Below, piece after piece: positions 1-64,000 of a stretch of DNA of 64,000 bases. A program made the position numbers and the translations under genes. The DNA is from Trueperaceae bacterium (GTDB lineage Bacteria; Deinococcota; Deinococci; Deinococcales; Trueperaceae). Under the pieces are notes generated by a model, which was not told the DNA's origin, did not search any database, and worked only from the letters and a program-made list of their open reading frames with translations. Position 1 is the stretch's first letter, and the number at the start of each line of letters is the position of its first letter. The stretch covers positions 1,120,001-1,184,000 of the forward strand of contig OZ243913.1 of the NCBI GenBank assembly GCA_965213705.1, written 5' to 3'.

Positions 1-1288
1 CGTAACCGTTCTTAAAGAGGGCGTCGACGTCGGCACCAAGCAGGACATCGACAGCAAGGTGCGCGAGACGGTCGAAGCGACCCTCAAACGTATCGAAGCG
101 GGCGGCGACGCGGCGGTGCGCGAGCTGTCTGAAAAGTTCGACCGCTACTCGCCCGAGAGTTTTCGGCTCTCCGAAGACGAGATAGCGGCCTGCGTCGAGC
201 AGGTGCCCAAGGACGAACTGGCGGCGATTCGGTTTTCGCTCGAGCAGGTCCGCACCTTTGCAAAAGCGCAGCGCGCGAGCGTCCGCGACGTCGAGGTCGA
301 AACGCTGCCGGGCGTGACGCTGGGCCACAAAAACATACCCGTCAACGCGGTCGGCTGTTACGCGCCGGGGGGCCGCTACCCGATGATTGCCAGCGTCATC
401 ATGAGCGTCGCCACGGCGAAAGTGGCGGGCGTGAAGCGCGTCGTCGCCTGCGCGCCGCCCAAAGACGGCAAACCCTACCCCGCCACGGTCGCCACCATGC
501 AACTCGCCGGGGCGGACGAGATTTACGTCCTCGGGGGTATCCAGGCCGTCGGCGCGATGGCGCTGGGCACCGAAACGCTGTCACCCGTCGACATGCTGGT
601 CGGCCCCGGCAACGCTTTTGTCGCCGAGGCGAAGCGGCAACTGTTCGGGCGCGTCGGCATCGACCTGTTCGCCGGGCCGACCGAAGTCCTCGTCATCGCC
701 GACGACACGGCCGACCTGGAAATGGTCGCGACCGACCTGTTGGGTCAGGCCGAGCACGGCCCGAACTCGCCGGCAGTCCTGCTCACGACGAGCGAGCGCT
801 TGGCGCAGGGGCTGCAAGCCGAAATCGACCGGCAGTTGCAAACCCTGGCAACCGCCGACGTCGCCGGGCAAGCCTGGCGGGAGTACGGCCAAATCATCCT
901 CGTCGACACGGACGAGGAACTGGTGCGTGAGGCCGACCGACTCGCCAGCGAGCACGTCGAGGTGTTGACCGCAAACCCGGACTACTTTCTGGAACACATG
1001 ACGAACTACGGCTCCCTCTTCTTAGGCCCCGAAACGAACGTCGCCTACGGCGACAAGGCCATCGGCACCAACCACATCCTGCCGACGAACAAGGCGGCGC
1101 GCTACACGGGCGGCTTGTGGGTCGGCAAGTTCCTAAAGACGGTGACCTACCAACGCTGCACCCCCGAGGCGAGCGTCGTCGTCGGCAAAAACTGCGAAAA
1201 AATCTGCGACATCGAAGGCTTTGCGGGCCACAAGCGCCAGGCGACGTTGCGGGTGGAGCGGTACGGGGAGGAGGTCGTTCGTTCTTAA
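1..1288 (+). CDS. Histidinol dehydrogenase-family paralog (HisD/HpsN-like); 5' end lies just upstream of the window
   Basis: Frame is open from base 2 (VTVLKEG...). Motifs [48 protein letters not shown]. Confidence 0.85.
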
Positions 1289-1336
1289 TCGTTCTGGACT
1301 TGTAAAAACGAATGACGAAAAACGAACAACGCTTCT

Positions 1337-2086
1337 ATGCCCCTCCCCCTCGAGCACAAAACCGCCCTCGTCACCGGCGCGGCGGGCGGCATCGGTTCCG
1401 AGCTTTGCCGTCACCTGGCTGAGGCGGGCGCGCGGGTCGTCGTGACCTACCGCAGCAGCGAACGTGAAGCGCGGCGCTTGGCCGAAAGCTTGAGCGGTGA
1501 GGGTCATATGGTCGCTCGAGCCGTCGTGGACGACAGCGCCACCCTGAACGCGCTTGCCGAACAGGTCGAAGCGGATTACGGCAAGCTCGACATCCTGGTC
1601 AACAACGCGGGCGTCACCCGGCCCGTGCCGCACGACGACTTGGTGGCGCTGGACGACGAGCTTATCGACAGCATCTTCCGCGTGAACGTGCGGGGGGCGC
1701 TGGCGGCGGTGCGGGCCTTCAAACCCTTGTTACAACGCTCCGGCGACGGGCTCGTCGTCAATATCTCGTCGGTTGCCGGGCGCACCGGGGTGGGCAGCAA
1801 CGTGGCTTACTGCGCCTCGAAGGCCGCGCTCGACTCGGTGACCCGCTCGCTGGCTCGGGCGCTCGCCCCCACCGTCCGCGTGGTGTCGGTGTCGCCGGGC
1901 TGGGTGCTGGGCGAGTACGCCAAACGAATGCCGCCTGAAACCATCGACGAGCAGGTCCGCAGAACCCCGCTCGAGCGCGTCGCCACGGCCGACGACGTGG
2001 CGCGGGCGGTGTTGGCGGTGGCGAGCAGTTTGACCTTTTCTACAGGATGTGTGATTCCGGTGGACGGGGGTCGGCCGCTGTTGTGA
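1337..2086 (+). CDS. Short-chain dehydrogenase/reductase (SDR)
   Basis: TGAAGGIG, NNAG and YCASK motifs. Confidence 0.9.
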   Translation: MPLPLEHKTALVTGAAGGIGSELCRHLAEAGARVVVTYRSSEREARRLAESLSGEGHMVARAVVDDSATLNALAEQVEADYGKLDILVNNAGVTRPVPHDDLVALDDELIDSIFRVNVRGALAAVRAFKPLLQRSGDGLVVNISSVAGRTGVGSNVAYCASKAALDSVTRSLARALAPTVRVVSVSPGWVLGEYAKRMPPETIDEQVRRTPLERVATADDVARAVLAVASSLTFSTGCVIPVDGGRPLL

Positions 2087-2128
2087 ACGCTGTTACGAAT
2101 CCAGTCTGCAACAGTCTGTAAAACGATT

Positions 2129-3232
2129 TCAGAAAACGGTTTCACCCGTGACGCGTGCCCGCAACCGCGAAGAGCCGTAGAGCAAGTCCGTAAAAAAGCG
2201 CCCGTCCGGCGCGGTGAGCCACCGAAAAGGCTCGGGCGCTTGTTCGTAAACCGCGCGCAACAAAGCGTGTGCGGTCTCGAGCGGGTCGAACGCCTCACCC
2301 CGCCCCCCGTCCTGCACAGCCAGCTTCACCCCGTGAACCTCCACCCCGGCGTGTTTCGAAAAGGTCGGCACGAAGCTGACGGGCTCGAAGCGCACACCGG
2401 GCACCGCACGGGCGGCAAGCGTGTCCGCCAGGTTGCCGGCGTCCAGCCAGGGCGCGCCGACCTGCTCGAAGGGCCGGTCGCTGCCGCGCCCTTCGCTGAG
2501 GTTCGTGCCTTCAAAAAACACCGTCGCGGCGTAACAGCGGACGCTGTCAAAGGTCGGCAGGTTGGGCGAAGGGGGCAGCCAGGGCAAGCCGGTCTCGCTC
2601 CAGGGTTCGCCGTGCCAGCCACTCACGGGGACGACGAGCGGCGGCTCGAGCCCTAAGTCTTCAGCCATTTGCAACGCCAGTTCGCCCAGGGTGCGCCCGT
2701 GAATGAACGGAACGTCGTGCGCGCTCACGAACGACTCGAAGCCTGTCGCGACGCCCTCACCCTGAACCCTGCGCCCGAGCGGGTTGGGGCGCTCGAGCAC
2801 CACCAGGCGCGTGCTCGCCCCGGCGCAAGCCTGCAAGCAAGCCTTGAGCGTGGACAAGTAGGTGTAACAGCGCACCCCGACGTCTTGCAAGTCGACTAAT
2901 AGCGCGTCCAAGTCGCTCAAGTGCTCCGCCGCGGGCACACGCCGCGCGCCGTAAAGGCTGACGACAGCTATACCGGTGCGCGGGTCGACACCGTCCCCGA
3001 CGGTTTCCCCCGCTTGCGCGTCGCCGTAAATCCCGTGTTCGGGGCCGAACAGCCGCTCGAGCGTGAGGTCGGGGTGCGCGCGAACCAGGTCGACCGCGTG
3101 CCGGGGTTCGCCGCCGACGCGGGCGACCGAAGCCCGGTGGGCGAGCAGGCCGACGCGCGCCCCCTTCAGGGTGTCCGGCAGGTCGGCGACGAGCCGCTGC
3201 AAACCTACCTGCAACACGGGTTGACGCTCCAC
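2129..3232 (-). CDS. Exo-beta-N-acetylmuramidase NamZ family (DUF1343)
   Basis: FGPEHG, DLQDVGVRCYTY, PPSPNLP, EGTNLSEGRG motifs. TAAGGT -10 box 6 nt before the GTG. Confidence 0.88.
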   Translation of the reverse strand: MERQPVLQVGLQRLVADLPDTLKGARVGLLAHRASVARVGGEPRHAVDLVRAHPDLTLERLFGPEHGIYGDAQAGETVGDGVDPRTGIAVVSLYGARRVPAAEHLSDLDALLVDLQDVGVRCYTYLSTLKACLQACAGASTRLVVLERPNPLGRRVQGEGVATGFESFVSAHDVPFIHGRTLGELALQMAEDLGLEPPLVVPVSGWHGEPWSETGLPWLPPSPNLPTFDSVRCYAATVFFEGTNLSEGRGSDRPFEQVGAPWLDAGNLADTLAARAVPGVRFEPVSFVPTFSKHAGVEVHGVKLAVQDGGRGEAFDPLETAHALLRAVYEQAPEPFRWLTAPDGRFFTDLLYGSSRLRARVTGETVF

Positions 3233-3280
3233 AAACCCACCTTAGCCCACTGGGCGGGCCGGACTCGGTTACCATGACCC

Positions 3281-6200
3281 ATGTCTATCGTCGCGGACTA
3301 CCTGCGCAACCTGCGCGAAATCCACCGCTCGGGCCAGGCCGTGCCGGAAACCTCTTACTACGGCACCCTGGAAACGCTGCTCAATGAACTCGGCAAAAGC
3401 CTAAAGCCGCGCGTGCGCGCCATCATCAACCTGCGCAACCGGGGCGCGGGCATCCCCGACGGCGGCCTGTTCGCCGAGGACCAACTGCCCAACGCCGACG
3501 CCGACCCCCTGACGACGGGCCAGAACCCGGCGCGGGGCGTGCTCGAGGTCAAGTCCACCGCCGAAGAGGTCGAGGCCGTGGCGAAAAGTGACCAAGTCAA
3601 AAAGTACCTGGACCGCTACGGCCTGGTCCTCGTCACCAACTACCGCGCCTTTTTGCTGGTCAAAAAGGGGGCGAGCGGCCAGCCCGAACTCCTGGAGCAC
3701 TATGCGCTCGCGCCCGACGAGGCGTCGTTTTGGGCCGCGAGCCTGAACGACCTGCTGGCGCACGAGGAACGCCTCAAAGACTACCTGCGCCGCGCCCTGC
3801 TGCACCGCGCGCCGCTCACCAACCCCAAGGACCTGGCCTGGTTTTTGGCGTCTTACGCGAGGGAAGCCAAGGCCCGCGTCGAAACGTCCGAGTTGCCGAC
3901 CCTCCAGGACGTGCGCGCAGCCCTGGAAGAGGCCCTGGGCATCAACTTTCAAGGCGACAAGGGCGACCACTTTTTCCGCTCGACCCTCATCCAAACGCTT
4001 TTTTACGGGGTTTTCTCGGCCTGGGTTCTGTGGAGTAAAGAGACGCCGCCCGCCTCCGAGGCGCGCTTCAACTGGAAAGAGGCCGCCTGGACGCTGCAAG
4101 TGCCGGTGATTCGCGCCCTGTTCGAGCGCGTGGCGACGCCGAGCCGCCTGAACAACCTCAAACTGGTTGAAGTCCTCGAGTGGACCGGCGACGCCCTGAA
4201 CCGCGTGGACCGCGCCGCCTTTTTCGAGCGCTTCGACGAGGGCCAGGCGGTGCAGTATTTTTACGAGCCGTTCTTGGAAGCCTTCGACCCCGAACTTCGC
4301 CGCGACCTGGGCGTGTGGTACACGCCGCCCGAGGTTGTCACCTACATGGTTGAGCGCGTAGACCGCGTGCTCCGCGACGAACTCGGCGTTGCCGACGGGC
4401 TGGCCGACGAGCAGGTCTACGTCCTCGACCCCTGTTGCGGCACCGGCACCTACCTGGTCGAAGTGTTGGGGCGAATAGGCAAGACGCTGCGGGACAAGGG
4501 CGGCGACGCGCTGCTCGGCAGCGACCTGAAACAGGCCGCCACACGCCGCGTCTTCGGCTTCGAGATTTTGCCCGCGCCCTTCGTGGTGGCCCACTTGCAA
4601 CTGGGGTTGCTGCTGCAAAACTTGGGCGCGCCGCTGAAAGAAGCGACGAACGAGCGCGCCGCGGTGTACCTCACCAACGCGCTGACCGGCTGGGCTGACG
4701 AGGCCCAGCCGGTGCTGAACTTTCCCGAGTTGGCCCAAGAGCGCGACGCCGCCGGGGAGGTTAAAAAGCACACGAACATTTTAGTCGTAATCGGCAACCC
4801 TCCCTACAACGGCTTTGCGGGCATGGCGGTGACCGAGGAGCGCCAACTGAGTAACGCCTACCGCACCACCAAACGCGCGCCCGCGCCGCGGGGCCAAGGT
4901 TTGAACGACCTCTACATCCGCTTTTACCGCATGGCCGAGCGCCAAATCGTCGAGCAGACCGGGCGCGGCGTGGTCTGCTACATCTCCAACTATTCGTGGC
5001 TGGACGGCCTCAGCTTTACGGGGATGCGCGAGCGCTACCTGGAGCTGTTCGACCGCGTGTGGATAGACTCCCTGAACGGCGACAAGTACCGCACCGGCAA
5101 GCTCACCCCGGACGGCAAGCCCGACCCGAGCGTGTTCTCCACCGAGTTCAACCGCGAGGGCATCCAGGTCGGCACCGCCGTCGCGCTGCTGGCTAGAACC
5201 GGCGAACACGCGCCCAGCGACCACATTCACTACCGCAACCTGTGGGGCCGTGACAAGCTCGAGCACCTAGCCAACACAGACTTCGACACGCTCGAGGGCG
5301 AATATGAACAAGTCGAACCCGTTTTGGAGATAGGCTTCCCCTTCACACCCTCGAGCGCAGCGATAAATTATTTCGAGTGGCCTCTTCTGGCAGATATTTT
5401 TCCAACGTCGTTTCCTGGCATCCAACCAAGCCGAGACCCTTTGGTCGTAGATATTGACAAAGGTGAACTCGTGCAGCGGATGGAAAAGTATTTTGACCCT
5501 GGTGTGAGTAACGTGGAGATGGAAAGAATTTCGCCCACGGCTATGAATAGCACGTCGCGTTTCGCGGCTGATGAAGTTCGTAAATACTTGGTTGAACGTG
5601 GTTTCTTGCCTGACAACGTTGTTCGTTATTGCTATCGCCCCTTTGATATGAGGTGGCTTTACTGGGAACCTGAGACAAAACTGCTGGACGAAAAAAGAGC
5701 TGAATATGTTGCTCAAGTTTCTGATAAGAATGTTTGGCTTGCTGCTGTTCAACAAAATAGAAAAGCGTTTGACCCACCTTTGGCATCTTCTATTCACTGC
5801 TCCCGACACATTGTTGAGAGAGGCGCAAACCTTTTTCCCCTCTATCTCAAGTTGGATGAAGGCACACTGTTTCAAGAAATCCGACCGAACCTGAGTGAAA
5901 AGGCTTTGAGTTATTTGGCTGAGCTTCCCGCCGACGCCGAAAACCTCTTCTATCACGCTTTGGCGGTTCAGCACGCAATCGCTTACCAAACCGAAAACGC
6001 CGGAGCCCTCCGTCAAGATTGGCCCCGCATCCCTCTTCCCGCCTCCGCAGAGCGGCTTGGGGCCTCGGCTGACTTGGGGCGCATGGTGGCGGGGTTGCTC
6101 GAGACCGAGACGCCCGTACCCGGCGTAACTACCGGCAAAGTGCGCGACGAGTTGAAACTTATCGGGGGCATAAGCGCGGTTTCAGGTCAGAGCTTGAACC

Positions 6201-6646
6201 CGGAGACGGACCTGTCTCTTACCCAGGGCTGGGGCCACTTCGGCACGCGCAACGCGGTCATGCCGGGCAAGGGCAAAACGGTGGAGCGCGATTACACGCC
6301 GGACGAACTGGCAAGTTTGGAAGCGGGCGCTGCGGCCTTGGGCATGAGCTTGGACGAGGTTCTGGACCTGCTCGGCACCTCGACGTTCGACGTGTACTTG
6401 AACGAGCGCGCCTACTGGAAAAACGTGCCGAGCCGCGTCTGGGACTACACCGTCGGCGGCTATCAAGTGATTAAAAAGTGGCTTTCCTACCGCGAACGGG
6501 GCGTGTTGGGCCGGGCGCTCGGGGTCGACGAGGCGCGGCACGTGACCGAGACGACGCGGCGGGTGGCGGGGTTGCTGCTGCTCGAGCCCGCGCTGAACGA
6601 AAATTATCAGGCCGTGAAGGCGGAGGCCTACAAAGGATTCGGCTGA
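3281..6646 (+). CDS. Single-chain restriction-modification enzyme (type IIG / type ISP-like, no helicase domain): PD-(D/E)xK nuclease, m6A methyltransferase, target-recognition domain
   Basis: IPDGG...LEVK nuclease motif; GVWYTP, LDPCCGTGTY, GNPPY; C-terminal YRPFD..W and VGGYQVIKKWLSYR typical of the type ISP C-terminus. Confidence 0.88.
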   Translation: MSIVADYLRNLREIHRSGQAVPETSYYGTLETLLNELGKSLKPRVRAIINLRNRGAGIPDGGLFAEDQLPNADADPLTTGQNPARGVLEVKSTAEEVEAVAKSDQVKKYLDRYGLVLVTNYRAFLLVKKGASGQPELLEHYALAPDEASFWAASLNDLLAHEERLKDYLRRALLHRAPLTNPKDLAWFLASYAREAKARVETSELPTLQDVRAALEEALGINFQGDKGDHFFRSTLIQTLFYGVFSAWVLWSKETPPASEARFNWKEAAWTLQVPVIRALFERVATPSRLNNLKLVEVLEWTGDALNRVDRAAFFERFDEGQAVQYFYEPFLEAFDPELRRDLGVWYTPPEVVTYMVERVDRVLRDELGVADGLADEQVYVLDPCCGTGTYLVEVLGRIGKTLRDKGGDALLGSDLKQAATRRVFGFEILPAPFVVAHLQLGLLLQNLGAPLKEATNERAAVYLTNALTGWADEAQPVLNFPELAQERDAAGEVKKHTNILVVIGNPPYNGFAGMAVTEERQLSNAYRTTKRAPAPRGQGLNDLYIRFYRMAERQIVEQTGRGVVCYISNYSWLDGLSFTGMRERYLELFDRVWIDSLNGDKYRTGKLTPDGKPDPSVFSTEFNREGIQVGTAVALLARTGEHAPSDHIHYRNLWGRDKLEHLANTDFDTLEGEYEQVEPVLEIGFPFTPSSAAINYFEWPLLADIFPTSFPGIQPSRDPLVVDIDKGELVQRMEKYFDPGVSNVEMERISPTAMNSTSRFAADEVRKYLVERGFLPDNVVRYCYRPFDMRWLYWEPETKLLDEKRAEYVAQVSDKNVWLAAVQQNRKAFDPPLASSIHCSRHIVERGANLFPLYLKLDEGTLFQEIRPNLSEKALSYLAELPADAENLFYHALAVQHAIAYQTENAGALRQDWPRIPLPASAERLGASADLGRMVAGLLETETPVPGVTTGKVRDELKLIGGISAVSGQSLNPETDLSLTQGWGHFGTRNAVMPGKGKTVERDYTPDELASLEAGAAALGMSLDEVLDLLGTSTFDVYLNERAYWKNVPSRVWDYTVGGYQVIKKWLSYRERGVLGRALGVDEARHVTETTRRVAGLLLLEPALNENYQAVKAEAYKGFG

Positions 6647-9974: not shown

Positions 9975-10037
9975 GGGCTCGAGGGTGTGTCTGGAAAAGC
10001 CCTTACCCCCGCCTGACGACTAGCAGCTCCAAAAGTG

Positions 10038-11158: not shown

Positions 11159-11327
11159 AGTTATCACCTCACGAAAAACAGTTTACAGCAGGCCGGGGAG
11201 AATGATGAGAAAAAGCCGGACAGCTCAGCTCGAGGTTGAAAGGTATCTCGCACAAACCTCTCCTCACCGGGTAGACTGAATTCTTTTGCCGACGATCGAG
11301 AAAGTCTCGGCTTCGGGTGGCACGCTG

Positions 11328-13194: not shown

Positions 13195-13236
13195 GAAAAG
13201 TACCGAGGACCGAGTGAAAAGTACCGAGTGGAAAGT
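13195..13236 (+). repeat. Intergenic short tandem repeat built from AAAGTACCGAGT/GTACCGA units (copy 1)
   Basis: gaaaagtaccgaggaccgagtgaaaagtaccgagtggaaagt. Confidence 0.75.
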
Positions 13237-13344
13237 CAAGGGCCTCCGCTCGAGGGTTTCCTACAAGCTACAGGCCTCGAGCCATAAGCCTCTACTCGTG
13301 AAGTGGGGTAGACTCGAGCCATACTCACTTGGAAGAGGTCTGCC

Positions 13345-14082: not shown

Positions 14083-15924
14083 ATGTCGCTCGATGCCAAA
14101 GAGCAAATCAGGCAGCGCCTCGACATCGCCGAGGTCGTCGGTGACGTTGTCGCGCTGAAACCTGCCGGACGCGGGCAGCTCAAAGGCTTGTGTCCCTTTC
14201 ACAACGAAAAAACGCCGTCGTTCCACGTCCACCAGGACCGCGGTTTTTATTACTGCTTCGGCTGTCAGGCCAAGGGCGACCTGTTCGACTTCGTGATGCA
14301 AACGCAAGGGGTGGACTTTTTCGAGGCGCTGCAAAGCTTAGGCGTGCGCGCCGGGATAGAGGTCACGCCGCAGACGCCCAGGGACAGCCGTCGCCGCGAC
14401 TTGTTTGAAGTCAACGCGCTGGCGCTGGCTTTTTTCAGGACGCAGCTCGAGGCCCACGCCCCTCTCGCCAAAAGCTATCTTCTCAACCGGAGGCTTAGCG
14501 AGGCGAGTTTGGACACCTTCGAACTCGGCTACGCCCCCGACAGTTGGGACGCGCTCCTCAAACACGCCCTCACCAAAGGGGTGAGTGACGCCGACCTGTT
14601 GGACGCCGGACTCGTGCGCGAGAGCGACGCGGGCCGCCGCTACGACTATTTTCGCAACCGCATCATGTTTCCCATCAAGGACTACCTCGGCCGCGTGGTC
14701 GGCTTTTCGGGGCGGGTGCTGGACGATTCAATGCCCAAGTACCTCAACACGAGCGAGACGGACATCTTCAAAAAAGGTGAACTGCTCTACGGCCTCGACC
14801 TCGCCAAAACCGCGATTCGCGCCTCGGGTGAGGCGCTCGTGGTCGAAGGCTACATGGACGTTATCGCGCTGCACCAAACGGGGTTCGACACGGCGGTCGC
14901 TGCTTTGGGCGCGACGCTCACCGCCGACCAAGCCGCGCAACTGAGCCGCCTGGACGTGCAAAAGCTCTACCTCGCCTTCGACGCGGACGAGGCGGGGCAG
15001 CGGGCGATTTTGTCGGGCCTCGAGCAGTCCGTAGGACGGCAGTTCTTAGTGCGCGCGGTGCGCGTGCCGCACGGCAAAGACCCGGCGGACGCGGTGCTCG
15101 GCGGACACGTCGCAGAGTTCCGTGCCGCCTTGAGCGAAGGTTTGTCGGAGGTCGAATTTCGCTTTACCAGCACCCTCGGCAAGTACGACCGCAGCACGCT
15201 GGACGGCAAAAAGGCCATCCTCAACGACCTGCTGCCGGTGCTGCGCCCGCGCGACGTGTTCGACCCGGTCGCCGCCGAGATGCGCCGACTCGTCATCGAC
15301 AAGCTCAGAATCGAACCCGCGCGACTCGACGACTGGATCAACAGCAAGCGCCAGCGCCGACTGGACGACACGCAAATCAAGGGGATGGAGCGCAAACGCT
15401 TCAACCCCACGCAGGTCGCGGTCATCGAACTCGAAGTCATCGCGCTGCTGCTGCTCGAGCCCGGCCTGTTGAGAAAGCGCCTCGAGTACGTCCAGTCGTC
15501 GCTGCCGCCCTCGATGGAAGACTCGGTCTTAAAAGAGTTTCAGGAGATTTGCGAGACCTGCCGCTATGACGACCAGCAGATTCTCTCCAGGTACCGCGAG
15601 CGCGACGAGGGGCGCATCCTGTTCGAACGCTTGTTCACCCAGGCCGAGGACGAGGACATGCGCATCGACGTGGAAATGCAAATCGACAAGTCCCTGTCCC
15701 GGCTGCGCGAGATGTACTTGGACGGCGCGAAGGAGAACCAGCGGGCGCACTTGCTCGAGCGCATGGAAGAGGTCAGCCGCTTTCTCACCGACCCGAATCT
15801 GCCCACCGACAAGCTAAAGCACTACTACGCCGAACTGAAAGAGATTCACTCGATGCTGGCGGCGCGCGACGCCGAACGCAGAATTCAGCGGGTGCCGGCG
15901 AATTTTAGAAACAAGAAACGCTAG
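14083..15924 (+). CDS. dnaG: DNA primase
   Basis: Zinc finger CPFH...CFGC; RIMFPI, KYLNTSET; TOPRIM motifs VEGYMD and FDADEAG. Confidence 0.97.
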   Translation: MSLDAKEQIRQRLDIAEVVGDVVALKPAGRGQLKGLCPFHNEKTPSFHVHQDRGFYYCFGCQAKGDLFDFVMQTQGVDFFEALQSLGVRAGIEVTPQTPRDSRRRDLFEVNALALAFFRTQLEAHAPLAKSYLLNRRLSEASLDTFELGYAPDSWDALLKHALTKGVSDADLLDAGLVRESDAGRRYDYFRNRIMFPIKDYLGRVVGFSGRVLDDSMPKYLNTSETDIFKKGELLYGLDLAKTAIRASGEALVVEGYMDVIALHQTGFDTAVAALGATLTADQAAQLSRLDVQKLYLAFDADEAGQRAILSGLEQSVGRQFLVRAVRVPHGKDPADAVLGGHVAEFRAALSEGLSEVEFRFTSTLGKYDRSTLDGKKAILNDLLPVLRPRDVFDPVAAEMRRLVIDKLRIEPARLDDWINSKRQRRLDDTQIKGMERKRFNPTQVAVIELEVIALLLLEPGLLRKRLEYVQSSLPPSMEDSVLKEFQEICETCRYDDQQILSRYRERDEGRILFERLFTQAEDEDMRIDVEMQIDKSLSRLREMYLDGAKENQRAHLLERMEEVSRFLTDPNLPTDKLKHYYAELKEIHSMLAARDAERRIQRVPANFRNKKR

Positions 15925-15935: not shown

Positions 15936-17615
15936 TCAAACGAAAACTTGCGCGCTCGAGCGCTTTCCTTTGTAATATCTTCGGTCTCTAAGAAGTTGCG
16001 CCGCTTCCCTCAAAATTCGAGTATCTTTCGAAGGTAGGCCGAAGAGCTTCTCGAGAATGAGGGTGTTAACCAACTCTCTCGCCGTTTGTTCGCAACCTTG
16101 GCGCAGTAAGCTGTCTACTTCAAGAAAGGCTTTATCAAACGCTTCAGTTCTTTCAGGGCTGGCGATGAGGACGTTTTTGGCTTCGCTGGGCTCGAGCTTC
16201 AACATGCCGCCGCCGAGCGCGTGGCCCTCGAGTTCTACACTTAAAGAGGTCAGTGACGTTTGCCACAGCAAGGCTAAGTCGTGGGCCGAAAACGGGACTC
16301 CGTCACGGAGCCGAACGGCGTGAAGGCTATTGGGGGTGACGGCCTCGGCGTCGTTAGCGACGAGCTGCGGCCTGAGTCCACTCATGTAGGTCAAAAAAGC
16401 GTCCGGCCGGTAAACGTGCGGCACGGCGTACCAGGGTGAGCGGACGCGGCACTTATACGCCTTGTGGACACCTCGAGCTTCACCCTTTTCGATGTAGGTT
16501 TTTACCGGCTTGGACAACCTCTTTTTGCCAGATAAGTCTAAGAGGTAGCCCGCTTCACCCCCTTTTTCCGCCTCGCCCCAGTCTCGTTTTGAAAAGTGTA
16601 AGCCGTCGAGCGTACGGCTTCGGTACACGGCTGGGGTGAGATAGGCGGGGGTTATGTTCTGCTTTTTCGCCTCCGCTTTGTTCAGATGAAAGAAGCCGTT
16701 ACCGCCTGTCACGTAGCCTATGCCCACCTCCGCAAAGTCTCCAAGCCGTTTTGTGAGTCCGCTTTTGGAGAGTTTTTCGTAGAGACTTCGCGCCTCTTCC
16801 GAAAGCCAGTAGGAGGCGAGCGTCGTGCGCCCACTTACGATGGCCTCTACGTTGACTTCGGCAGCGTGTGTGAGGTTTGCAGTTGTGTTTGTGCGCGTGA
16901 GGTCGGCGACGCTTTCCAGGTCGGCGAGAAACAGGTTGCCGGATTTACCTTTATCTTCGGCCAGCAAAAGCAAGGTGTCTTGGCTAAGGTCGGGAAACAA
17001 GCGCTCTTTGAACGTCAGCAGCGTTGTACGACCAAAGTTCTCTGCGACGTACTTCAGCACGGGCCTGGCATAGGCGGCGTGGCCGATTTCGACCGGAATG
17101 ACCATTGCGAGGCGGCCTCCTTGCTTCAAAATGAAGCAACTATGAACCAAAAAAGGAGCCCAGGAACTCACGAGCTTGTTGAGCGCTACGCCTTGACGTT
17201 CAGCTCGGCGTAGCGCCAGTTGCCGGTCTTCGCCGTTAAAACTTTGATAGCGAATAAAGGGCGGATTGCCGACGACGGCGTCTACCGGTTTCAGCGTTTT
17301 TGGCGTGACCTGAAAAAAATCTGCACGTAGAAGGTTTTTGGTTTTAACCCTGTAAAGAAGCGAAAGCTCGTAGGCTATCTGCCTGTGAACCTGCTCGTCT
17401 ATCTCGACACCGTAGACTTGGTTTGAATAGTTCCCTCCAAGGTGCTCGAGGCGTTTTAGAGCGGCCTCGAGGAACACGCCGCCCCCAAAACTGGGGTCCA
17501 GCACCGTTTCCGACGGGGCGCGAACGGCCCAGCCGACGAGAAAGTCCGCTATTCGTTGGTCGGTGTAGTAAGCGCCGAGCCGTTTGGCTCGTAAACCGCG
17601 AGGAGGGTCGGCCAC
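15936..17615 (-). CDS. Orphan gamma-class N6-adenine DNA methyltransferase (TaqI/PaeR7I/Eco57I-like architecture)
   Basis: GAYYT, LDPSFGGGVF, VGNPPF, GIGYVTG; extended -10 TGtTAAACT 6 nt before the GTG. Confidence 0.88.
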   Translation of the reverse strand: MADPPRGLRAKRLGAYYTDQRIADFLVGWAVRAPSETVLDPSFGGGVFLEAALKRLEHLGGNYSNQVYGVEIDEQVHRQIAYELSLLYRVKTKNLLRADFFQVTPKTLKPVDAVVGNPPFIRYQSFNGEDRQLALRRAERQGVALNKLVSSWAPFLVHSCFILKQGGRLAMVIPVEIGHAAYARPVLKYVAENFGRTTLLTFKERLFPDLSQDTLLLLAEDKGKSGNLFLADLESVADLTRTNTTANLTHAAEVNVEAIVSGRTTLASYWLSEEARSLYEKLSKSGLTKRLGDFAEVGIGYVTGGNGFFHLNKAEAKKQNITPAYLTPAVYRSRTLDGLHFSKRDWGEAEKGGEAGYLLDLSGKKRLSKPVKTYIEKGEARGVHKAYKCRVRSPWYAVPHVYRPDAFLTYMSGLRPQLVANDAEAVTPNSLHAVRLRDGVPFSAHDLALLWQTSLTSLSVELEGHALGGGMLKLEPSEAKNVLIASPERTEAFDKAFLEVDSLLRQGCEQTARELVNTLILEKLFGLPSKDTRILREAAQLLRDRRYYKGKRSSAQVFV

Positions 17616-18158: not shown

Positions 18159-18725
18159 CTAAAGGTAAACCGGCTCTACCGCTCGAGCCGCGCCGGTGAA
18201 AACCAGTTTTGCCAAGTAACCAGCGTCGGGCGCCGCGTCTTCGAAGTAGGGAAGGTCGGGTTGGCTCGCTCTCAGGGCCGCGCGTTCCCACTTGCCCGCG
18301 CTGACAAGGGTGGTTACGTCCTCGCCCTGGCGGCGGAACACGCCCCCGTAGACGTTGCCGCGCCGGGCGTCCAGGGCGCAGACGCCCGTCTCACCCGCCG
18401 CCAGCGTTTTGGCGGCGACGGCTTGGAGCGTGCCGCCGCCGCCCAGCGGCACGCCGAGCCCACGGGCGAGACCCCGCGCCGCGGCGACGCCCACGCGCAG
18501 CCCGGTGTACGAGCCGGGTCCCAGCCCGACGCCGACGCCTGCAAGCTGTCGTTTGCTCACCCCGGCCTTCCCCAACAAGTTCTCGAGTTCACCCAAAAGG
18601 CGTTCGGCGTGGTCACGGCCGAGCCGTTCCTCAAAACCAGCCAAAACGCCCTGGCTCGGTGACCACAAGGCCAAGGCCAAAAACGGCGTCGCGGTGTCTA
18701 TACCCAAGTAGATACGTTCCGGCAC
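18159..18725 (-). CDS. tsaB: tRNA t6A37 biosynthesis protein TsaB
   Basis: LGIDTAT, HAERL, GPGSYTGLRVG and DARRG motifs. Confidence 0.95.
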   Translation of the reverse strand: MPERIYLGIDTATPFLALALWSPSQGVLAGFEERLGRDHAERLLGELENLLGKAGVSKRQLAGVGVGLGPGSYTGLRVGVAAARGLARGLGVPLGGGGTLQAVAAKTLAAGETGVCALDARRGNVYGGVFRRQGEDVTTLVSAGKWERAALRASQPDLPYFEDAAPDAGYLAKLVFTGAARAVEPVYL

Positions 18726-18920
18726 AAAAGACTATAGCCTAGCCCGGGTCGGTGTTGGCCGTTTGAAAAACACTCACAAGTTCGCGGCGGTCCCGAGGAC
18801 GAGCCCAAAAGCGTCACGGCCAAAGTCGCTTTCCTTGAAAGTACCCGTGCAGCGCCGCACAGGGGAGCGTCGCACAGGGCAGGGCCGACTCAGTGCAGGG
18901 CCGCATGGGTCAAAGCCGAA

Positions 18921-19331
18921 TCAGTGCAGCGTCGCGCGCCTCGTTTCACCGTCGAGGGTGAGTTCGACGTGGAGCGCGTCGGGAAAAACCTCGAGCAGGG
19001 CGTCACCCCATTCGACGACGACGAGTCGGGCGCGCTCCAGGTAGTCCTCCAAACCGAGGTCGAGGAGGGCGGCCGCACTGTTCAGCCGGTACGCGTCTAT
19101 GTGGACGAGGGTGCCTGTCGGTGTCGGGTACTCGTGGACGAGCGTGTAGGTGGGACTGCTGACGTGAGCGGCGCTGCCCAGGGCCGCTCCCAGAGCTTGG
19201 GTGAGCGCCGTCTTGCCCGCGCCCAAAGGCCCGCTCAGGACCAGCAAACTACCGCGGGGCGCGACCGCGACGAGCCGCTGCGCCAGTCGCCGCGTGTCTT
19301 CCAAACTCTCAAGGTCGAACGAGGAGGGCAT
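18921..19331 (-). CDS. tsaE: tRNA t6A37 biosynthesis ATPase TsaE
   Basis: GPLGAGKT, VSSPTYTL, HIDAYRL and VEW motifs. Confidence 0.95.
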   Translation of the reverse strand: MPSSFDLESLEDTRRLAQRLVAVAPRGSLLVLSGPLGAGKTALTQALGAALGSAAHVSSPTYTLVHEYPTPTGTLVHIDAYRLNSAAALLDLGLEDYLERARLVVVEWGDALLEVFPDALHVELTLDGETRRATLH

Positions 19332-26834: not shown

Positions 26835-26871
26835 GTACTCGGTACTTTCGACTCGGTACTCGGTACTTTTT
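26835..26871 (-). repeat. Intergenic GTACCGA-type repeat (copy 2, reverse orientation)
   Basis: Reverse complement aaaagtaccgagtaccgagtcgaaagtaccgagtac shares ~27 identical nt with copy 3. Confidence 0.8.
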
Positions 26872-28650: not shown

Positions 28651-28726
28651 GAAAGTACCGAGTACCGAGTCGAAAGTAGTGAGCAAAAAACTTTCGACCT
28701 TTTACTTTTCACTCGGTACTTTTCAC
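28651..28726. repeat. Intergenic GTACCGA-type repeat (copy 3) forming an imperfect inverted repeat
   Basis: gaaagtaccgagtaccgagtcgaaag...ctttcgac...actcggtacttttc. Confidence 0.8.
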
Positions 28727-36285: not shown

Positions 36286-36546
36286 GCTGCTGCCCCTAAC
36301 TTTGTACAACGAGGGGTGGTTTTGGTGCCCCCCTGTTTCCGGCCCCGACACAGAACTCGCTAAAAAAGGCGCGACCCGGCCGCCGGTCAACCCACCTTAG
36401 AGACTCTCGAGCCCGCCTACTTTGGTGTGAGGTACAGTTCGGGTGGGCTTATCTCGAGGGCAGGGGAGATGGGAGCGGAGGAGATAGGGAGCAGAGAAGA
36501 AAAAGCTCTTGGCTTTACTTTCTCCTTTCCACTTGGCACTTTCTCC

Positions 36547-59075: not shown

Positions 59076-61484
59076 ATGACCGTGAAAGAGGTTTTCGAAA
59101 CGATGGACTACGGCCCCGCCCCCGAAAGCGCTGACCTGGCGATAGCTTGGCTCGAGCGCCACAAGCGCACTTTCGAGCTTTTCATTGGCGGCAAGTTCGT
59201 CAAACCCGCGGCGGGCGAGTATTTTGAGACGATTAACCCCGCCGACGAAACTGTTCTGGCGAAAGTCGCGCAGGGCGACGCATCAGACATCGACAAGGCC
59301 GTCAAGGCGGCGCGGGCAGCGCAGGGCGAGTGGACGGGGTTGTCGGGACACGCACGGGCTCGCTACCTCTACGCGCTGGCGCGGCACGTGCAAAAGCACT
59401 CGAGGCTCTTGGCCGTTTTAGAAACCCTCGACAACGGCAAACCGATTCGCGAGACGCGCGACTTGGATATTCCGCTGGTGGCGCGGCACTTTTACCACCA
59501 CGCGGGTTGGGCGCAGCTTTTGGGCAGCGAGTTTGAAGGCTACGAGCCGGTCGGCGTGTGCGGACAGATTATCCCCTGGAACTTTCCGCTGCTGATGCTC
59601 GCCTGGAAAATCGCGCCCGCCCTCGCCGCGGGGAATACAGTTGTTCTCAAACCCGCCGAGTTCACGCCGCTCACGGCGCTCGCTTTCGCCGAAATTTGCC
59701 AGGAGGTCGGGCTGCCGCCGGGCGTGGTCAACATCGTTACGGGCGACGGGACGACGGGCGCGGCCCTGGTCGAGCACAGCGGCGTCGATAAGCTCGCCTT
59801 CACCGGCTCGACCGAGGTCGGGCGGCTTATCCGCGAGAAGAGTGCGGGCAGCGGTAAGAAGCTGTCACTCGAGCTGGGCGGCAAGTCGCCCTTCATCATT
59901 TTCGAAGATGCCGATATAGACAGCGCCGTCGAGGGCGTGGTGGACGCGATTTGGTTCAACCAGGGCGAGGTCTGCTGCGCGGGCTCACGACTGCTCGTGC
60001 AAGAAGGGATTGCCGAGAAAGTCCACCGCAAACTTCTCGCGCGTATGGAAAAGCTTCGCGTCGGCAACCCGCTCGATAAGGCGGTCGACATGGGCGCGGT
60101 CGTCGCGGCGGTGCAGTTGCAAAAAATTCGCCGACTCGTCGAAGAAGGTAAAGCAGAGGGCTTGGCCTGTTACCAACCTTCGTGGTCGGTGCCGGAAACG
60201 GGCTACTACTACCCGCCGACCCTGTTCACCGACGTCGACCCGGCCTCCACGGTCGCGCAGGTCGAAATCTTCGGCCCGGTGATGGCCTCGACGACCTTCC
60301 GCACCCCGGACGAGGCTGTTCTGCTTGCCAACAACACGCGCTACGGCCTGGCGGCTTCGGTGTGGACCGAGAACGTCAACTTGGCCCTCGACGTTGCGCC
60401 GCAACTCAAGGCGGGCGTGGTGTGGATAAACTCGACCAACCTGTTCGACGCGGCGGCGGGCTTCGGCGGTTACCGCGAATCCGGCTACGGGCGCGAGGGC
60501 GGCCGTGAGGGCATGTATGAATACCTGGTGCCGTCGTGGGAGAAGGGGCTAAAACCGGTAAGCAGCCAGAAGTCGGCAGAGCGTCCCTTAGCCCCCTTTG
60601 AGGAGGGCCGCTCGAGCGAAGCGCAGATCGGGGGGGTTGGGGTCGACCGCACCCCGAAACTCTACATCGGCGGCAAACAAGCGCGGCCCGACTCGGGTTA
60701 CAGCTACGCCGTTTCAGGTTCCAAAGGCGAGCACTTGGGCGAAGTCGGCCTCGGCAACCGCAAAGACATTCGCAACGCGGTCGAGGCGGCGCGGAAAGCC
60801 GAAGCTTGGTCGCAGGCGACGGCGCACAACCGGGCGCAGGTGCTTTACTACCTGGCCGAGAATTTGGCGGCTCGGGCCCCCGAATTCGAGGCGCGACTCG
60901 TTCAAACGACGGGTGTCACGCGCAAAAAAGCGGCGGCGGAGGTTGAAGCGTCCATTGAGCGCATCTTTTACTACGCCGCCTACGCCGACAAGTACGACGG
61001 GCAGGTTCACGCCACGCCGATTCGCAACGTCACCCTCGCCATGCCCGAGCCTTGGGATGTGATGGGCCTGAGTTGCCCGGATGAAGCGCCGCTGCTGGCT
61101 TTCATTTCGCTGGTCATGCCCGCCGTTGCGATGGGCAACCGGGTCGTGGTGACGCCCTCGACGCGCCATCCGCTCGTCGTCACCGACCTCTACCAGGTCT
61201 TGGACACCTCGGACGTGCCGGGCGGCGTCGTCAACATTGTCACGGGCGACCAGGACGAACTCGCGGAGGTGCTTGCGAAACATGACGAGGTGGCGGCCCT
61301 GTGGTACATCGGCTCGGCGGAAGGTAGCGCCGCGGTCGAGCGCGCGTCAACCGGCAACCTCAAGGCGACCTGGGTGAACTATGGCAAAGCGCGCGACTGG
61401 TTTGATAAGACGCAGGGGCAGGGGCGAGCGTATTTGCGCCGGGCGACGCAGGTGAAAAATATTTGGGTCCCGTACGGCGAATGA
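59076..61484 (+). CDS. Aldehyde dehydrogenase with a duplicated C-terminal ALDH-like domain (ALDH16-type)
   Basis: IIPWNFP, FTGSTEVG, ELGGKSP, catalytic VCCAG, EIFGP; second partial ALDH domain; GGAGG RBS. Confidence 0.92.
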   Translation: MTVKEVFETMDYGPAPESADLAIAWLERHKRTFELFIGGKFVKPAAGEYFETINPADETVLAKVAQGDASDIDKAVKAARAAQGEWTGLSGHARARYLYALARHVQKHSRLLAVLETLDNGKPIRETRDLDIPLVARHFYHHAGWAQLLGSEFEGYEPVGVCGQIIPWNFPLLMLAWKIAPALAAGNTVVLKPAEFTPLTALAFAEICQEVGLPPGVVNIVTGDGTTGAALVEHSGVDKLAFTGSTEVGRLIREKSAGSGKKLSLELGGKSPFIIFEDADIDSAVEGVVDAIWFNQGEVCCAGSRLLVQEGIAEKVHRKLLARMEKLRVGNPLDKAVDMGAVVAAVQLQKIRRLVEEGKAEGLACYQPSWSVPETGYYYPPTLFTDVDPASTVAQVEIFGPVMASTTFRTPDEAVLLANNTRYGLAASVWTENVNLALDVAPQLKAGVVWINSTNLFDAAAGFGGYRESGYGREGGREGMYEYLVPSWEKGLKPVSSQKSAERPLAPFEEGRSSEAQIGGVGVDRTPKLYIGGKQARPDSGYSYAVSGSKGEHLGEVGLGNRKDIRNAVEAARKAEAWSQATAHNRAQVLYYLAENLAARAPEFEARLVQTTGVTRKKAAAEVEASIERIFYYAAYADKYDGQVHATPIRNVTLAMPEPWDVMGLSCPDEAPLLAFISLVMPAVAMGNRVVVTPSTRHPLVVTDLYQVLDTSDVPGGVVNIVTGDQDELAEVLAKHDEVAALWYIGSAEGSAAVERASTGNLKATWVNYGKARDWFDKTQGQGRAYLRRATQVKNIWVPYGE

Positions 61485-61508
61485 GCGCACTGTGCGGTAG
61501 GATGGCGT

Positions 61509-62117
61509 ATGGTTATCCAAGTTCGTGAAGACGTTGTTTTCGACGTGCTCGAGAAGCCGTTCGCCATCCGCTTGCCCTTTGCGCTGTCGGATGACGAGCT
61601 TTTGGAGCTTGCGTCCCTCAATCCCGAGGTGGGCCTGGAAGTCAGTGCGCAAGGAGACCTTATCGTCATGCCACCCGCCGGAGGGGAAAGCAGTCGTCGC
61701 AACGCTGACGTCGTCAGTCAGTTGTTCACTTGGTCGAAGCGTGATGGAACTGGGGTCGTTTACGACTCTTCGGGTGGATTTCGCCTACCCAACGGCGCGT
61801 TGCGCTCGCCGGACGCGTCCTGGGTGAGCCGAGAACAGCTCGAGCCCCTCAGCCCCGAGCAGCGCGAAAAGTTTTTGCCCCTGTGCCCGGCGTTCGTGGT
61901 CGAGTTGCTTTCCCCTTCGGACAGCTTGAAAGTAGCTCAGGAAAAGATGCAGGAATACCTCGAGAACGGTGCCGAACTCGGCTGGCTCATCGACGCAAAA
62001 ACGAAGCGGGTCCACGTTTACACGCCCGAAGGTGTGGTTGACCTCGAGGAGCCCGACACGCTGAGCGCCGAACCCGTATTGGTGGGGTTTAGGCTCGAGC
62101 TGAGTGAAATCTGGTAA
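61509..62117 (+). CDS. Uma2-family endonuclease-fold protein
   Basis: G.LIVMPP, DSSGGF.LPNG..RSPD.SW, CP.FVVEL.S and LGWLID motifs. Confidence 0.92.
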   Translation: MVIQVREDVVFDVLEKPFAIRLPFALSDDELLELASLNPEVGLEVSAQGDLIVMPPAGGESSRRNADVVSQLFTWSKRDGTGVVYDSSGGFRLPNGALRSPDASWVSREQLEPLSPEQREKFLPLCPAFVVELLSPSDSLKVAQEKMQEYLENGAELGWLIDAKTKRVHVYTPEGVVDLEEPDTLSAEPVLVGFRLELSEIW

Positions 62118-62410
62118 AGCTAAAACCTTGATGCGTTTGGCACACCTGGAGCTTCGAAAACCGTTGGGTGATGCAAACCCTCAATGCGACTGTTGCGCGC
62201 GTTAACTGCGTTAATTTCAACCAATGCTCAGCTCGTTTTGGAATAAATGGCATGAAAATAATCCCTTGAAAAACCAAGCCAAAGTTGTGGAAGAAGTCAA
62301 ACGTGGCGGGGTACGGGGGCTGAACGAGGGTGGGTGCTTAAAGCTCGAGGGGCCTGACAGTGCCACGCAGGTTTGCCACTCGCTCATGTTGCGCTGCTCT
62401 CAAGGCGGGG

Positions 62411-62989
62411 TCAGTAGACGGCGAGACCCGCCTCGCTCGGCACCAAAAAGCGGACCCAGCTCTCCTCGGGCAGTTTGTCTAGAGTAAGCTCGGCCGCGTA
62501 GAACATGCCGCTCACCTCGAAGCCGATAAGGCCCAAGCGGTAGGGCACCGCCGCGTAAATGTGTTTCCCTAGACCGGTAAGCCAGCGCTCGAGGGGCTTC
62601 TGCCACAGGTGCGCTTGTGCCTCGTGGCCGAAAGGAAAGCCGCCGACCGTGTCGTAAGTTTGCGCCAGCGCTCCCATCGGAAAGTAGAAGTCGAGCCAGT
62701 CAGGTCCGTCGTCTTCGCGCACGCTCACCGTGCCGCAGGGCACGCGTTCACCGTCCGTCAAGGTAGCGACGCCTTGCAGATGCGGGTGTTCCGACAACCT
62801 AAGAGGAGGTACGGCGACCTGTTCTGCAGGCTCGAGCCCGCGTGCCAAGTAGCAGCCCTCGAGTCCTTCATACGCCCAACACGCCTCGAGGGCCTGCGCC
62901 AGCCGCGCGTCGGAGCGCTCCCCCAGCTCGAGGGCGAGTTCGAGAAAGCCGCCACTCCAGGTATCTTTGTTGGTATAGCGCGCTTTCAC
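62411..62989 (-). CDS. Hypothetical protein (immunity-like)
   Basis: 192-aa ORF with host-like codon use; aromatic- and acidic-rich; family not recognised. Confidence 0.65.
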   Translation of the reverse strand: MKARYTNKDTWSGGFLELALELGERSDARLAQALEACWAYEGLEGCYLARGLEPAEQVAVPPLRLSEHPHLQGVATLTDGERVPCGTVSVREDDGPDWLDFYFPMGALAQTYDTVGGFPFGHEAQAHLWQKPLERWLTGLGKHIYAAVPYRLGLIGFEVSGMFYAAELTLDKLPEESWVRFLVPSEAGLAVY

Positions 62990-63109
62990 AGCTTAGTTGT
63001 CCCTTACTTCGAGCCGAGTTTGAAGTTCTGTCGTGTAGTGCCTTTATAAACGTCCCAGGGCGCTAGGAGTAAGCGTACGGCACAAGTCACTTCCGCTACG
63101 CCTACCTCT

Positions 63110-63616
63110 TCAGCCCTTGCTCGCTTCAGCCTCGAGCCGTTGCCTGAGCAAGACCCGATGTTCCCCGACGTAGGCGGTCAAACGTGTCCAAAACTCTTCC
63201 TCGTCGAAGTCGGCCTCGAGCCTGCCTATGTCTTTTTCTGCCGCCGCCCACTTATCACCGTGCGTCGCTTTCCAACTCGTAACGGGGTAAGGAACCTTCG
63301 CCCTGTCTTTTTGAACAGTTTCAAAAGTGATGTTTGCGGTCTCAGCCACGTCAAGGATGCGCCGCAACGTGCCCGCGCACGTGTACGCGCTCACACGCCC
63401 CAGCGCGGTCACCGTTTCCCTGGCGTACTTGCCTGAACTGTTCCCGAGGAAGTCGAGCATCCCGTTCATGGCGCGCTCTGTCTCAAAGTCGACGAGGAGC
63501 ATGACGACGGCGAGGGGGTCGTCGGTATCGCCCACTAAGCCTCGGTCCCTAAACTCGGTCAGGGGCGGCTGGTAGAGTTTGACCGCAAGCTCGTCCAAAA
63601 GCTGCTCGGGAGTCAC
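63110..63616 (-). CDS. DMP19/DUF4375-like protein
   Basis: E..MNG...FLGNSSGKY..ETV.AL motif and C-terminal L.AYV. Confidence 0.7.
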   Translation of the reverse strand: MTPEQLLDELAVKLYQPPLTEFRDRGLVGDTDDPLAVVMLLVDFETERAMNGMLDFLGNSSGKYARETVTALGRVSAYTCAGTLRRILDVAETANITFETVQKDRAKVPYPVTSWKATHGDKWAAAEKDIGRLEADFDEEEFWTRLTAYVGEHRVLLRQRLEAEASKG

Positions 63617-63736
63617 CGCGCGGCTCGGCAGCCGTTTAGAGGTCGAGTTCGACAAGGGTAAACGGAACCTTTGCAAGCGTGTCGAAGTCGGTAGGGTCGA
63701 ACCCTGTTACGCGCCGCGCCAGGTTGAAAACGTTCC

Positions 63737-64000
63737 TCAAGATACTTCAAATCCCTTCGACGTCAGGCAAAAGTCTGCAAATGTCTGTAGCCATTCGTAG
63801 GTGACCCCGTAATTTTTATGCATCGTTTCGGGCGCGCGGTAGAACGTGGCGTCGTCCGTGCCGGTCGTGCCGAAGTCGGTATTCAAACGTTCAAGCTCGA
63901 GCCGGGGTAGCACATCACGCTCGAGCCGCCGACCGACGCCTTTCGCTTCTTCCTGGGTGACGGTCGTGGAGCCGTTGAAACTCATCCCCTCGAGCCGCTC
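63737..64000 (-). CDS. Hypothetical protein, 3' part (frame open to the window edge)
   Basis: Ends W...F.DFC..SKGFEVS*. Confidence 0.55.
   Translation of the reverse strand, partial: ERLEGMSFNGSTTVTQEEAKGVGRRLERDVLPRLELERLNTDFGTTGTDDATFYRAPETMHKNYGVTYEWLQTFADFCLTSKGFEVS

What the first reader, a model, noticed from the sequence alone, without database searches (positions are those of the whole stretch)
1..64000. CTCGAG behaves as a highly iterated palindrome (HIP1-like) across the window
Seen: I counted about 45 CTCGAG sites in the first 16.5 kb by eye, versus roughly 5-6 expected from base composition at ~62% GC. The high density continues across the window. Sites occur in several reading frames and between genes (9978, 11229, three within 13249-13318, two in 36406-36458, 62343), so Leu-Glu coding alone does not explain them. 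Established: cyanobacterial HIP1 (GCGATCGC) is a comparable over-represented, methylated palindrome linked to recombination. Inference: this lineage has a methylation/repair- or recombination-driven process that creates or uses CTCGAG.
Basis: partly seen in the sequence, partly recalled or inferred. Interest (0 to 1): 0.75.

Follow-up and report, generated by a model that had tools for sequence, protein, structure and literature searches.

The report
Deinococcota palindrome with candidate marking methylase
This Deinococcus-Thermus relative carries the palindrome CTCGAG about every 480 bases, in genes and between them, far beyond what codon use explains, and a lone DNA methylase in this window is predicted to mark it, which would make it a testable counterpart of the unexplained HIP1 word of cyanobacteria.

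Summary
Confirmed. CTCGAG occurs 154 times in the window (21 expected) and 8,868 times genome-wide. It survives codon shuffling in all frames (2.6x, 18x, 3.8x), is the top intergenic hexamer, prefers GCTCGAGC, avoids its own neighbours and is conserved in the sister genome.

It is phylum-wide: it is seen in Thermus (as CCTCGAGG), Allomeiothermus and many relatives, but not in Deinococcus. The scan found this before on other DNA (an uncultured family; Thermus).

New here: a solitary adenine methylase at window 15936-17615. Relatives lacking it often carry a PaeR7I-like CTCGAG methylase instead (one genus: 17 + 5 of 22, no overlap). In one genome an element carrying the PaeR7I-like gene interrupts it. 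Its specificity is inferred, not measured.

Sites differ from the sister genome mostly by 2-3 bases, more than stepwise models predict, which suggests biased repair or recombination. Against a methylation cause: the densest family and several other rich genomes showed no such methylase with my queries. AddAB was found in nearly all rich genomes searched but also in poor ones. Nine literature searches found no report.

The parts
1..64000 (.). 154 dispersed CTCGAG palindromes (49 as GCTCGAGC), sample of 8,868 genome-wide
15936..17615 (-). Solitary gamma-type adenine DNA methyltransferase (559 aa from a GTG start; motif I DPSFGGG, motif IV NPPF); candidate CTCGAG methylase, specificity inferred
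   Evidence: Pfam N6_Mtase/Eco57I/M_Eco57I_C; NPPF invariant in 42 homologues; model pLDDT 86.7, fold like CamA and M.BseCI; distribution
14083..15924 (+). dnaG primase, convergent neighbour of the methylase; same neighbour in 6 of 28 other genomes' loci examined
18159..19331 (-). tsaB and tsaE, housekeeping genes on the other side; no restriction nuclease gene seen beside the methylase
13249..13318 (.). three intergenic CTCGAG sites between purU-like and apt-like genes
36406..36458 (.). two intergenic CTCGAG sites
9978..9983 (.). intergenic CTCGAG
11229..11234 (.). intergenic CTCGAG
62344..62349 (.). intergenic CTCGAG

Best explanation
CTCGAG (here best as GCTCGAGC) is a highly iterated palindrome of the Deinococcota that is likely kept and created by a sequence-specific bias in DNA repair or recombination, and the lone adenine methylase in this window is predicted to mark it. 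Shown: over-representation in every frame and between genes, flank preference, self-avoiding spacing, conservation, and multi-base differences from the sister genome. Inferred: in a mismatched or donor/recipient heteroduplex, the strand carrying the (methylated) site would be kept over a short patch. Single-base losses are then undone and new sites are fixed, mostly where no site is near, which limits the density. The factor that reads the site and sets the lineage-specific flanks (G..C in this family, C..G in Thermus, none in the densest family) is not identified.
For: (1) Occupancy of synonymous opportunities rises with distance to the nearest other site: O/E 0.48 under 15 bp, 1.0 at 100-200 bp, 1.36 at 600-800 bp, 1.78 at 1.2-2 kb (n=42). 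None of 8 control hexamers shows this rise. Spacing CV is 0.938, against 1.014 or more for all 80 control hexamers tested. Elhai's ratchet predicts such saturation (PMC4390886, section 18). (2) The force depends on position: odds ratios 1.1-11 in the Leu-Glu frame, 3.5-9.5 in the Ser frame, and 7-99 where the T and A are the free bases; in the Leu-Glu and T/A frames each G/C flank adds about 2.5-5x. (3) In 259 orthologue pairs with G290, GAG after CTC is kept in 542 of 547 cases vs 71-86% after six other codons. Discordant sites are 21 single vs 53 multi-base (Leu-Glu) and 7 vs 21 (T/A frame). Stepwise models expect 30 and 4.3 multi-base even with every state's frequency fitted (P 1e-4, 1e-8); two control dipeptides fit the simpler stepwise model. 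Extra divergence is confined to 3 codons either side. (4) The methylase family is in 66 of 301 genomes and a PaeR7I-like methylase in 15 of 301. In genus g37, 17 have one and 5 the other, 22 of 22 with no overlap. Genera g14 (3/3), g11 (1/1) and g40 (3/3) have only the PaeR7I-like one. In G206 an integrase element carrying the PaeR7I-like gene splits the orthologue. (5) 21 of 22 site-rich family members in a hand-picked panel of 56 carry one of the two. Among site-poor members GCTCGAGC makes up 205 of 649 sites with the methylase vs 64 of 512 without. (6) Active m6A CTCGAG methylases with no cognate nuclease are listed for M. ruber, M. chliarophilus and Marinithermus (PMC4752239, supplement 3).
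Against: No methylome or enzyme test. None of five methylase queries found a shared enzyme in the densest family f5 (10 genomes), in g39 (4), or in G178, G238 or G223 (family scans covered 6 of these). PMC4752239 lists no CTCGAG methylase for M. silvanus, yet its named plasmid has 63 sites in 50 kb vs 18 expected. 15 of 31 carriers of the window's family in the panel are not hexamer-rich, and G132, G247 and G282 show little GCTCGAGC. Flank preference follows lineage, not methylase type. No m5C methylase or Vsr was found, and I did not search for a MutH-like reader. The five g37 replacements may be one clade; no tree was built and kin are not independent. G086 has both methylases. Gains vs losses could not be polarised.
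Confidence: 0.45

Rival explanations
1. Chi-like signal. The AddAB helicase-nuclease stops degrading at CTCGAG-core sites, so own and kin DNA is spared and recombined. The methylase is secondary.
For: AddA was found in 185 of 301 genomes: f5 10/10, f3 61/62, f4 14/14, f1 93/102, but f2 only 6/112. In f2 these include both site-rich genomes (G178, G238) and not the site-poor congener G179. G000 has AddA and AddB. Strains lacking ppol/addAB transform 100-1000x better in T. thermophilus; the passages read name no Chi sequence (PMC11143384). HIP1 was proposed to act Chi-like (bioRxiv 2024.09.10.611283, abstract).
Against: AddA is also in site-poor genomes (g48 3/3; most poor f1). The AddB N-terminus looks the same in rich and poor lineages (12 sequences). 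No leading-strand skew of asymmetric flanks (0.47-0.50), though the origin is poorly defined. Known Chi sites are polar, not palindromic (recalled). At least one site-rich f1 genome (G246, 550 contigs) had no AddA hit.
Confidence: 0.22
2. Ordinary selection for a binding site of a chromosome-organising or DNA-uptake protein, with diminishing returns at short spacing. Orphan methylases are kept only to shield thousands of sites from incoming XhoI/PaeR7I-type nucleases.
For: Conservation and even spacing fit this equally well. XhoI-family nucleases occur in the phylum (4 of 80) and PaeR7I-like methylases are on 37 plasmid records. It explains rich genomes without a methylase. Xu et al. 2018 argue for selection on HIP1 (passages; summary).
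Against: Selection on the whole site predicts one odds ratio for all frames and stepwise change; both fail. No binding protein was identified.
Confidence: 0.25
3. A by-product of codon, dipeptide or restriction-site avoidance, or copies of a small repeat element.
For: 56% of sites (4981 of 8868) are Leu-Glu codons; Leu-Glu O/E is 1.25. Many other palindromes are strongly avoided.
Against: 18x enrichment in a frame that needs two rare codons; top intergenic hexamer. 0 of 876 intergenic sites share an 18-base context three or more times.
Confidence: 0.02

Closest known systems
HIP1 (GCGATCGC) and alternate HIPs of cyanobacteria (Elhai 2015, PMC4390886; Xu 2018, PMC5861425; Rodriguez-Cruz 2026, PMC13756078)
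   Same: Dispersed palindrome at 0.5-2.5 per kb, in genes and spacers, conserved, with lineage-specific palindromic extensions. Usually accompanied by an orphan methylase, with the densest genomes among the exceptions (Elhai section 2.5.2). The 8-mer here also begins and ends with GC.
   Different: Other phylum and other core (TCGA, not GATC; GCGATCGC has 4 copies here). Adenine rather than cytosine methylases, no m5C enzyme. Lower O/E for the 8-mer (8.4 at order 2; 39 intergenic at order 1) than the 55-228 Elhai tabulates. At least three different methylase families appear to substitute for one another.
Orphan CTCGAG methylases in Blow et al. 2016 (PMC4752239)
   Same: Nuclease-free CTCGAG methylases in Meiothermus and Marinithermus; CTCGAG clusters in Nocardia.
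   Different: In Nocardia the enzymes are listed with Vsr partners (one as m5C) and the sites cluster by dnaA. The passages and rows read do not report genome-wide over-representation in Deinococcota. The window's enzyme is only about 21-26% identical to PaeR7I-like proteins.
Chi sites of RecBCD/AddAB and DNA uptake sequences (recalled)
   Same: Over-represented, conserved short words thought to spread by recombination bias.
   Different: Those are polar, non-palindromic words; no strand skew was seen here and no receptor was tested.

Membership tests
HIP1 sensu stricto | sequence GCGATCGC, CGATCG/GATC methylases | tested here: not met
   GCGATCGC O/E 0.02, GATC O/E 0.10; no PF00145 hit
Highly iterated palindromes (HIP1-like) | density of roughly 300-2700 per Mb, top oligomer of its class | tested here: met
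   2088 per Mb; GCTCGAGC 678 per Mb; both top of their length class at order 2
Highly iterated palindromes (HIP1-like) | independent of reading frame, present between genes | tested here: met
Highly iterated palindromes (HIP1-like) | conserved at orthologous positions beyond controls | tested here: met
   one genome pair, 259 genes
Highly iterated palindromes (HIP1-like) | cognate orphan methylase | tested here: inconclusive
   candidate by distribution only; no methylome
Highly iterated palindromes (HIP1-like) | 10-90 kb periodicity | not tested
   only distances up to 4 kb were examined
Type II restriction-modification (XhoI/PaeR7I) | cognate nuclease beside the methylase; site avoided | tested here: not met
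   no PF04555 in G000; housekeeping neighbours; site enriched
Chi site | AddAB/RecBCD present | tested here: met
Chi site | polarity, leading-strand skew | tested here: inconclusive
   core is palindromic; flanks 0.47-0.50 on the leading strand but GC skew is weak
Chi site | attenuates the nuclease | not testable with these tools
   needs biochemistry
DNA uptake sequence | raises uptake through a receptor | not testable with these tools
   needs transformation assays
REP/MITE repeat | shared flanking sequence | tested here: not met
   0 of 876 intergenic sites in repeated 18-base contexts

The most novel reading that the evidence does not exclude
CTCGAG is an ancestral self/kin mark of the whole Deinococcota, lost in Deinococcus. 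Interchangeable adenine methylases (the window's uncharacterised family, PaeR7I-like, TaqI-like) mark the same adenine, and a recombination or repair machine (possibly AddAB) writes the word into genomes in short multi-base conversion events. That would be a second, independent HIP system that can be dissected in naturally competent Thermus thermophilus and explain HIP1 by analogy.
Probability: 0.2. Interest if true: 0.88.

Novelty: new variant of a known kind. Interest (0 to 1): 0.68.

Why it matters
HIP1 has lacked a mechanism for three decades. A second system in another phylum comes with natural gains, losses and flank changes, a named candidate enzyme, and a genetically tractable host: 55 of 59 TCGA in 50 kb of the T. 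thermophilus HB27 plasmid are CTCGAG. That makes the competing models (methyl-directed ratchet, Chi-like protection, selection) directly testable. Practically, the site or its methylation might change transformation efficiency in Thermus and Meiothermus, as reported for HIP1.

Tried and rejected
Codon/dipeptide artefact: rejected. Repeat element: rejected. m5C methylase plus Vsr pump: no PF00145 or PF03852 hit in G000. A resident XhoI/PaeR7I system: no nuclease, and the best PaeR7I-like hit is a weak match to a large fused enzyme. TaqI-like methylase: 7 of 80 panel genomes (g36 4/4, g44 2/2, G043), not G000. XhoI-linked beta methylase: 8 of 80, not G000 or f5. G243's distant methylase: not shared across f5. 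The search for related loci returned only 10 out-of-phylum relatives (33-43%) and at first suggested a recent import; overturned that. Specificity from neighbours of out-of-phylum homologues: the adjacent ORFs have no Pfam match (11 of 13 blank). Polarising gains vs losses: only 13-15 genes per outgroup overlapped; too few. AddB pocket comparison: no difference, and no PDB sequence match. Lower density in foreign-looking genes: not seen (O/E 1.01-1.11 in the two lowest GC3 deciles). Rfam: no match. No read-level or methylation data were obtained, so methylation in this organism remains open.
Full report
OBSERVATION. The window has 154 CTCGAG sites against 21 expected from base composition; 46 lie in the first 16.5 kb. 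The genome has 8,868 (2.09 per kb), O/E 6.4 to 1.5 over Markov orders 0-4, evenly spread, while most other palindromes are avoided (GATC 0.10; GAGCTC 73 copies). With my own gene calls (3,842 genes), synonymous shuffling in the 3,414 genes of 300 bp or more leaves 2.6x, 18x and 3.8x excess in the three frames. CTCGAG is the top hexamer in every intergenic size class. It is not a repeat element.

ANATOMY. The favoured form is GCTCGAGC (2,879 sites; intergenic O/E 38.8). Sites avoid one another: spacing CV is 0.938, below all 80 control hexamers tested of 89 eligible. Occupancy of synonymous opportunities climbs from 0.48 of expectation within 15 bp of another site to 1.36 at 600-800 bp, and 8 controls do not climb. 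The force is strongest where the T and A are the free bases (odds ratio 7-99 by flank, vs 1.1-11 and 3.5-9.5). These ratios depend on the baselines chosen. From established knowledge, that A is the one modified by PaeR7I- and TaqI-type enzymes.

EVOLUTION. I compared 398 kb of the congener G290 (about 9% of it): 259 orthologue pairs, four-fold identity 0.74. GAG after CTC is kept 542 of 547 times vs 71-86% elsewhere. Where one genome has the site and the other not, they differ mostly by 2-3 bases: 53 of 74 in Leu-Glu pairs and 21 of 28 in the T/A frame. A stepwise model with selection on the site expects 79% and 59% single changes, and it fits two control dipeptides. Fitting every state's frequency still expects only 30 and 4.3 multi-base cases. 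Excess divergence is limited to 3 codons either side. This rests on one genome pair with pooled rates. Polarisation failed for lack of overlap; by eye about five amino-acid-changing cases looked like gains and one like a loss.

DISTRIBUTION. In 301 genomes of the phylum (family and genus names are not given, and my labels are inferences), density is about 0.1 per kb in the large genus g35 (Deinococcus-like), 1.4-3.5 in g37/g39/g40, 4.3-6.5 in family f5, 7.0 in G238 against 0.3 in its congener G179, and mixed in the window's family f1. Against the near word CTCGAC (80 hand-picked genomes; ratios worked by hand), g36 has 9-54 CTCGAC but about 1,850-2,200 CTCGAG. Named records agree. T. thermophilus HB27 pTT27, first 50 kb: 55 of 59 TCGA are CTCGAG, nearly all CCTCGAGG. 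D. radiodurans MP1: 8 in 50 kb. A. silvanus pMESIL01: 63 vs 18 expected. Flanks are lineage-specific: G..C in f1, C..G in g36 and G178, mixed in g37/g39/g40, none in f5. G251 is unpublished; it is one row in the tallies and no claim depends on it.

THE METHYLASE. Window 15936-17615 (-) encodes a 559-aa gamma-type adenine methylase between dnaG and tsaB, with no nuclease beside it; the model resembles CamA and M.BseCI. Orthologues (38-70% identical) occur, nearly always as one copy, in 47 of 102 other f1 genomes and 17 of 62 f3 genomes, all in g37, with one distant hit in 112 f2; two database homologues are named Meiothermus. A PaeR7I-like methylase (52% to a plasmid gene annotated paeR7IM; beside a broken XhoI-family gene in G086) is in 15 of 301. 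The two are complementary: 17 + 5 of 22 in g37; PaeR7I-like only in g14, g11 and g40; in G206 an integrase element with the PaeR7I-like gene lies inside the split orthologue; G086 has both. In the 56 f1 genomes, 21 of 22 rich ones (ratio 2 or more) have one of the enzymes, against 15 of 34 poor ones. In 435 kb from 11 poor carriers GCTCGAGC is 205 of 649 sites (3.3x expected), vs 64 of 512 (1.5x) in 429 kb from 12 non-carriers. Kin are not independent and no tree was built. I put the chance that it methylates CTCGAG or GCTCGAGC at about 0.7. Genera g36 and g44 have a TaqI-like enzyme. Against necessity: f5, g39, G178, G238 and G223 showed no shared enzyme with these queries, and Blow et al. 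list none for M. silvanus.

OTHER FACTORS. AddA tracks the f2 exceptions (G178 and G238 have it; G179 and all g35 genomes had no hit) and is in all 10 f5 genomes, but also in poor genomes. AddB gave no distinguishing residues. G000 has MutS- and MutL-like genes by recalled motifs and a weak NucS-like hit, but no Vsr or m5C methylase.

MECHANISM. I commit to a repair/recombination bias that favours the site-bearing strand, with the window's enzyme as the likely mark in this lineage (0.45). Rivals: selection for a protein-binding site with protective methylases (0.25), a Chi-like AddAB signal (0.22), artefact (0.02). The existence of the iterated palindrome itself is about 0.97.

LITERATURE. Nine searches of the open-access library listed no paper on CTCGAG or CCTCGAGG iteration in Deinococcota; I judged this from titles and abstract starts, and subscription papers are not covered. 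Read: Elhai 2015, passages and part 1 of 2 of section 18; Blow 2016, passages and supplement rows; Rodriguez-Cruz 2026, passages and section 9; Xu 2018, passages; Kamoku and Nielsen, abstract only (preprint supplements not seen); PMC11143384, passages. Supplements of Elhai and Xu were not read and might tabulate non-cyanobacterial words. Earlier scan notes describe the word in an uncultured family and in Thermus; none was returned for this genome or this methylase.

VERDICT. Real and HIP1-like, but not HIP1. A new variant of a known kind, seen before by this scan elsewhere, here with a concrete candidate enzyme and a mutational signature. Interest 0.68.

Noticed in passing
window 13199-13232, 26838-26860, 28655-28720; genome-wide: A second, clustered intergenic repeat built on AGTACCGAG (268 copies, 206 intergenic, often tandem), also matching many places in G290. 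Looks REP-like; unrelated to CTCGAG.
   Followed up: partly
G000 genome-wide: Very strong avoidance of GATC (O/E 0.10) and of CCATGG, TGGCCA, GCATGC and GAGCTC (0.03-0.04 at order 2).
   Followed up: no
window 15936-17615 vs L100: The methylase is only 43% identical to the copy beside dnaG in congener G290 (dnaG 95%) but 70% to one in another genus, suggesting replacement in place.
   Followed up: no
window 15936-17105: Public gene calls (P0002) and my caller start this methylase at an internal ATG (389 aa), losing both catalytic motifs; the open frame from GTG is 559 aa.
   Followed up: partly
window 3281-6646: Type ISP restriction-modification enzyme (1121 aa).
   Followed up: no
window 61509-62117: Uma2-family putative nuclease with 5 CTCGAG in 609 bases.
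   Followed up: no
L161:6408-16152: Integrase-bearing element with a PaeR7I-like methylase and an IS inserted inside the host methylase gene of G206.
   Followed up: partly
L185 (Thermus phage P23-45, first 50 kb): 6 CTCGAG vs 15 expected and no CCTCGAGG: this phage does not share the host word.
   Followed up: partly
G179, G174: Small genomes (2.1-2.3 Mb) with chance-level CTCGAG and no AddA hit, reminiscent of HIP1 loss in symbionts.
   Followed up: no
G000:C1:2252295-2254616 and 3047590-3050364: addB and addA are 0.8 Mb apart here; they are neighbours in 11 of 12 relatives' loci.
   Followed up: no
G210 (L225, L245): 38 of 51 CTCGAG are GCTCGAGC although the hexamer is barely enriched: a nearly pure 8-mer form.
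   Followed up: no
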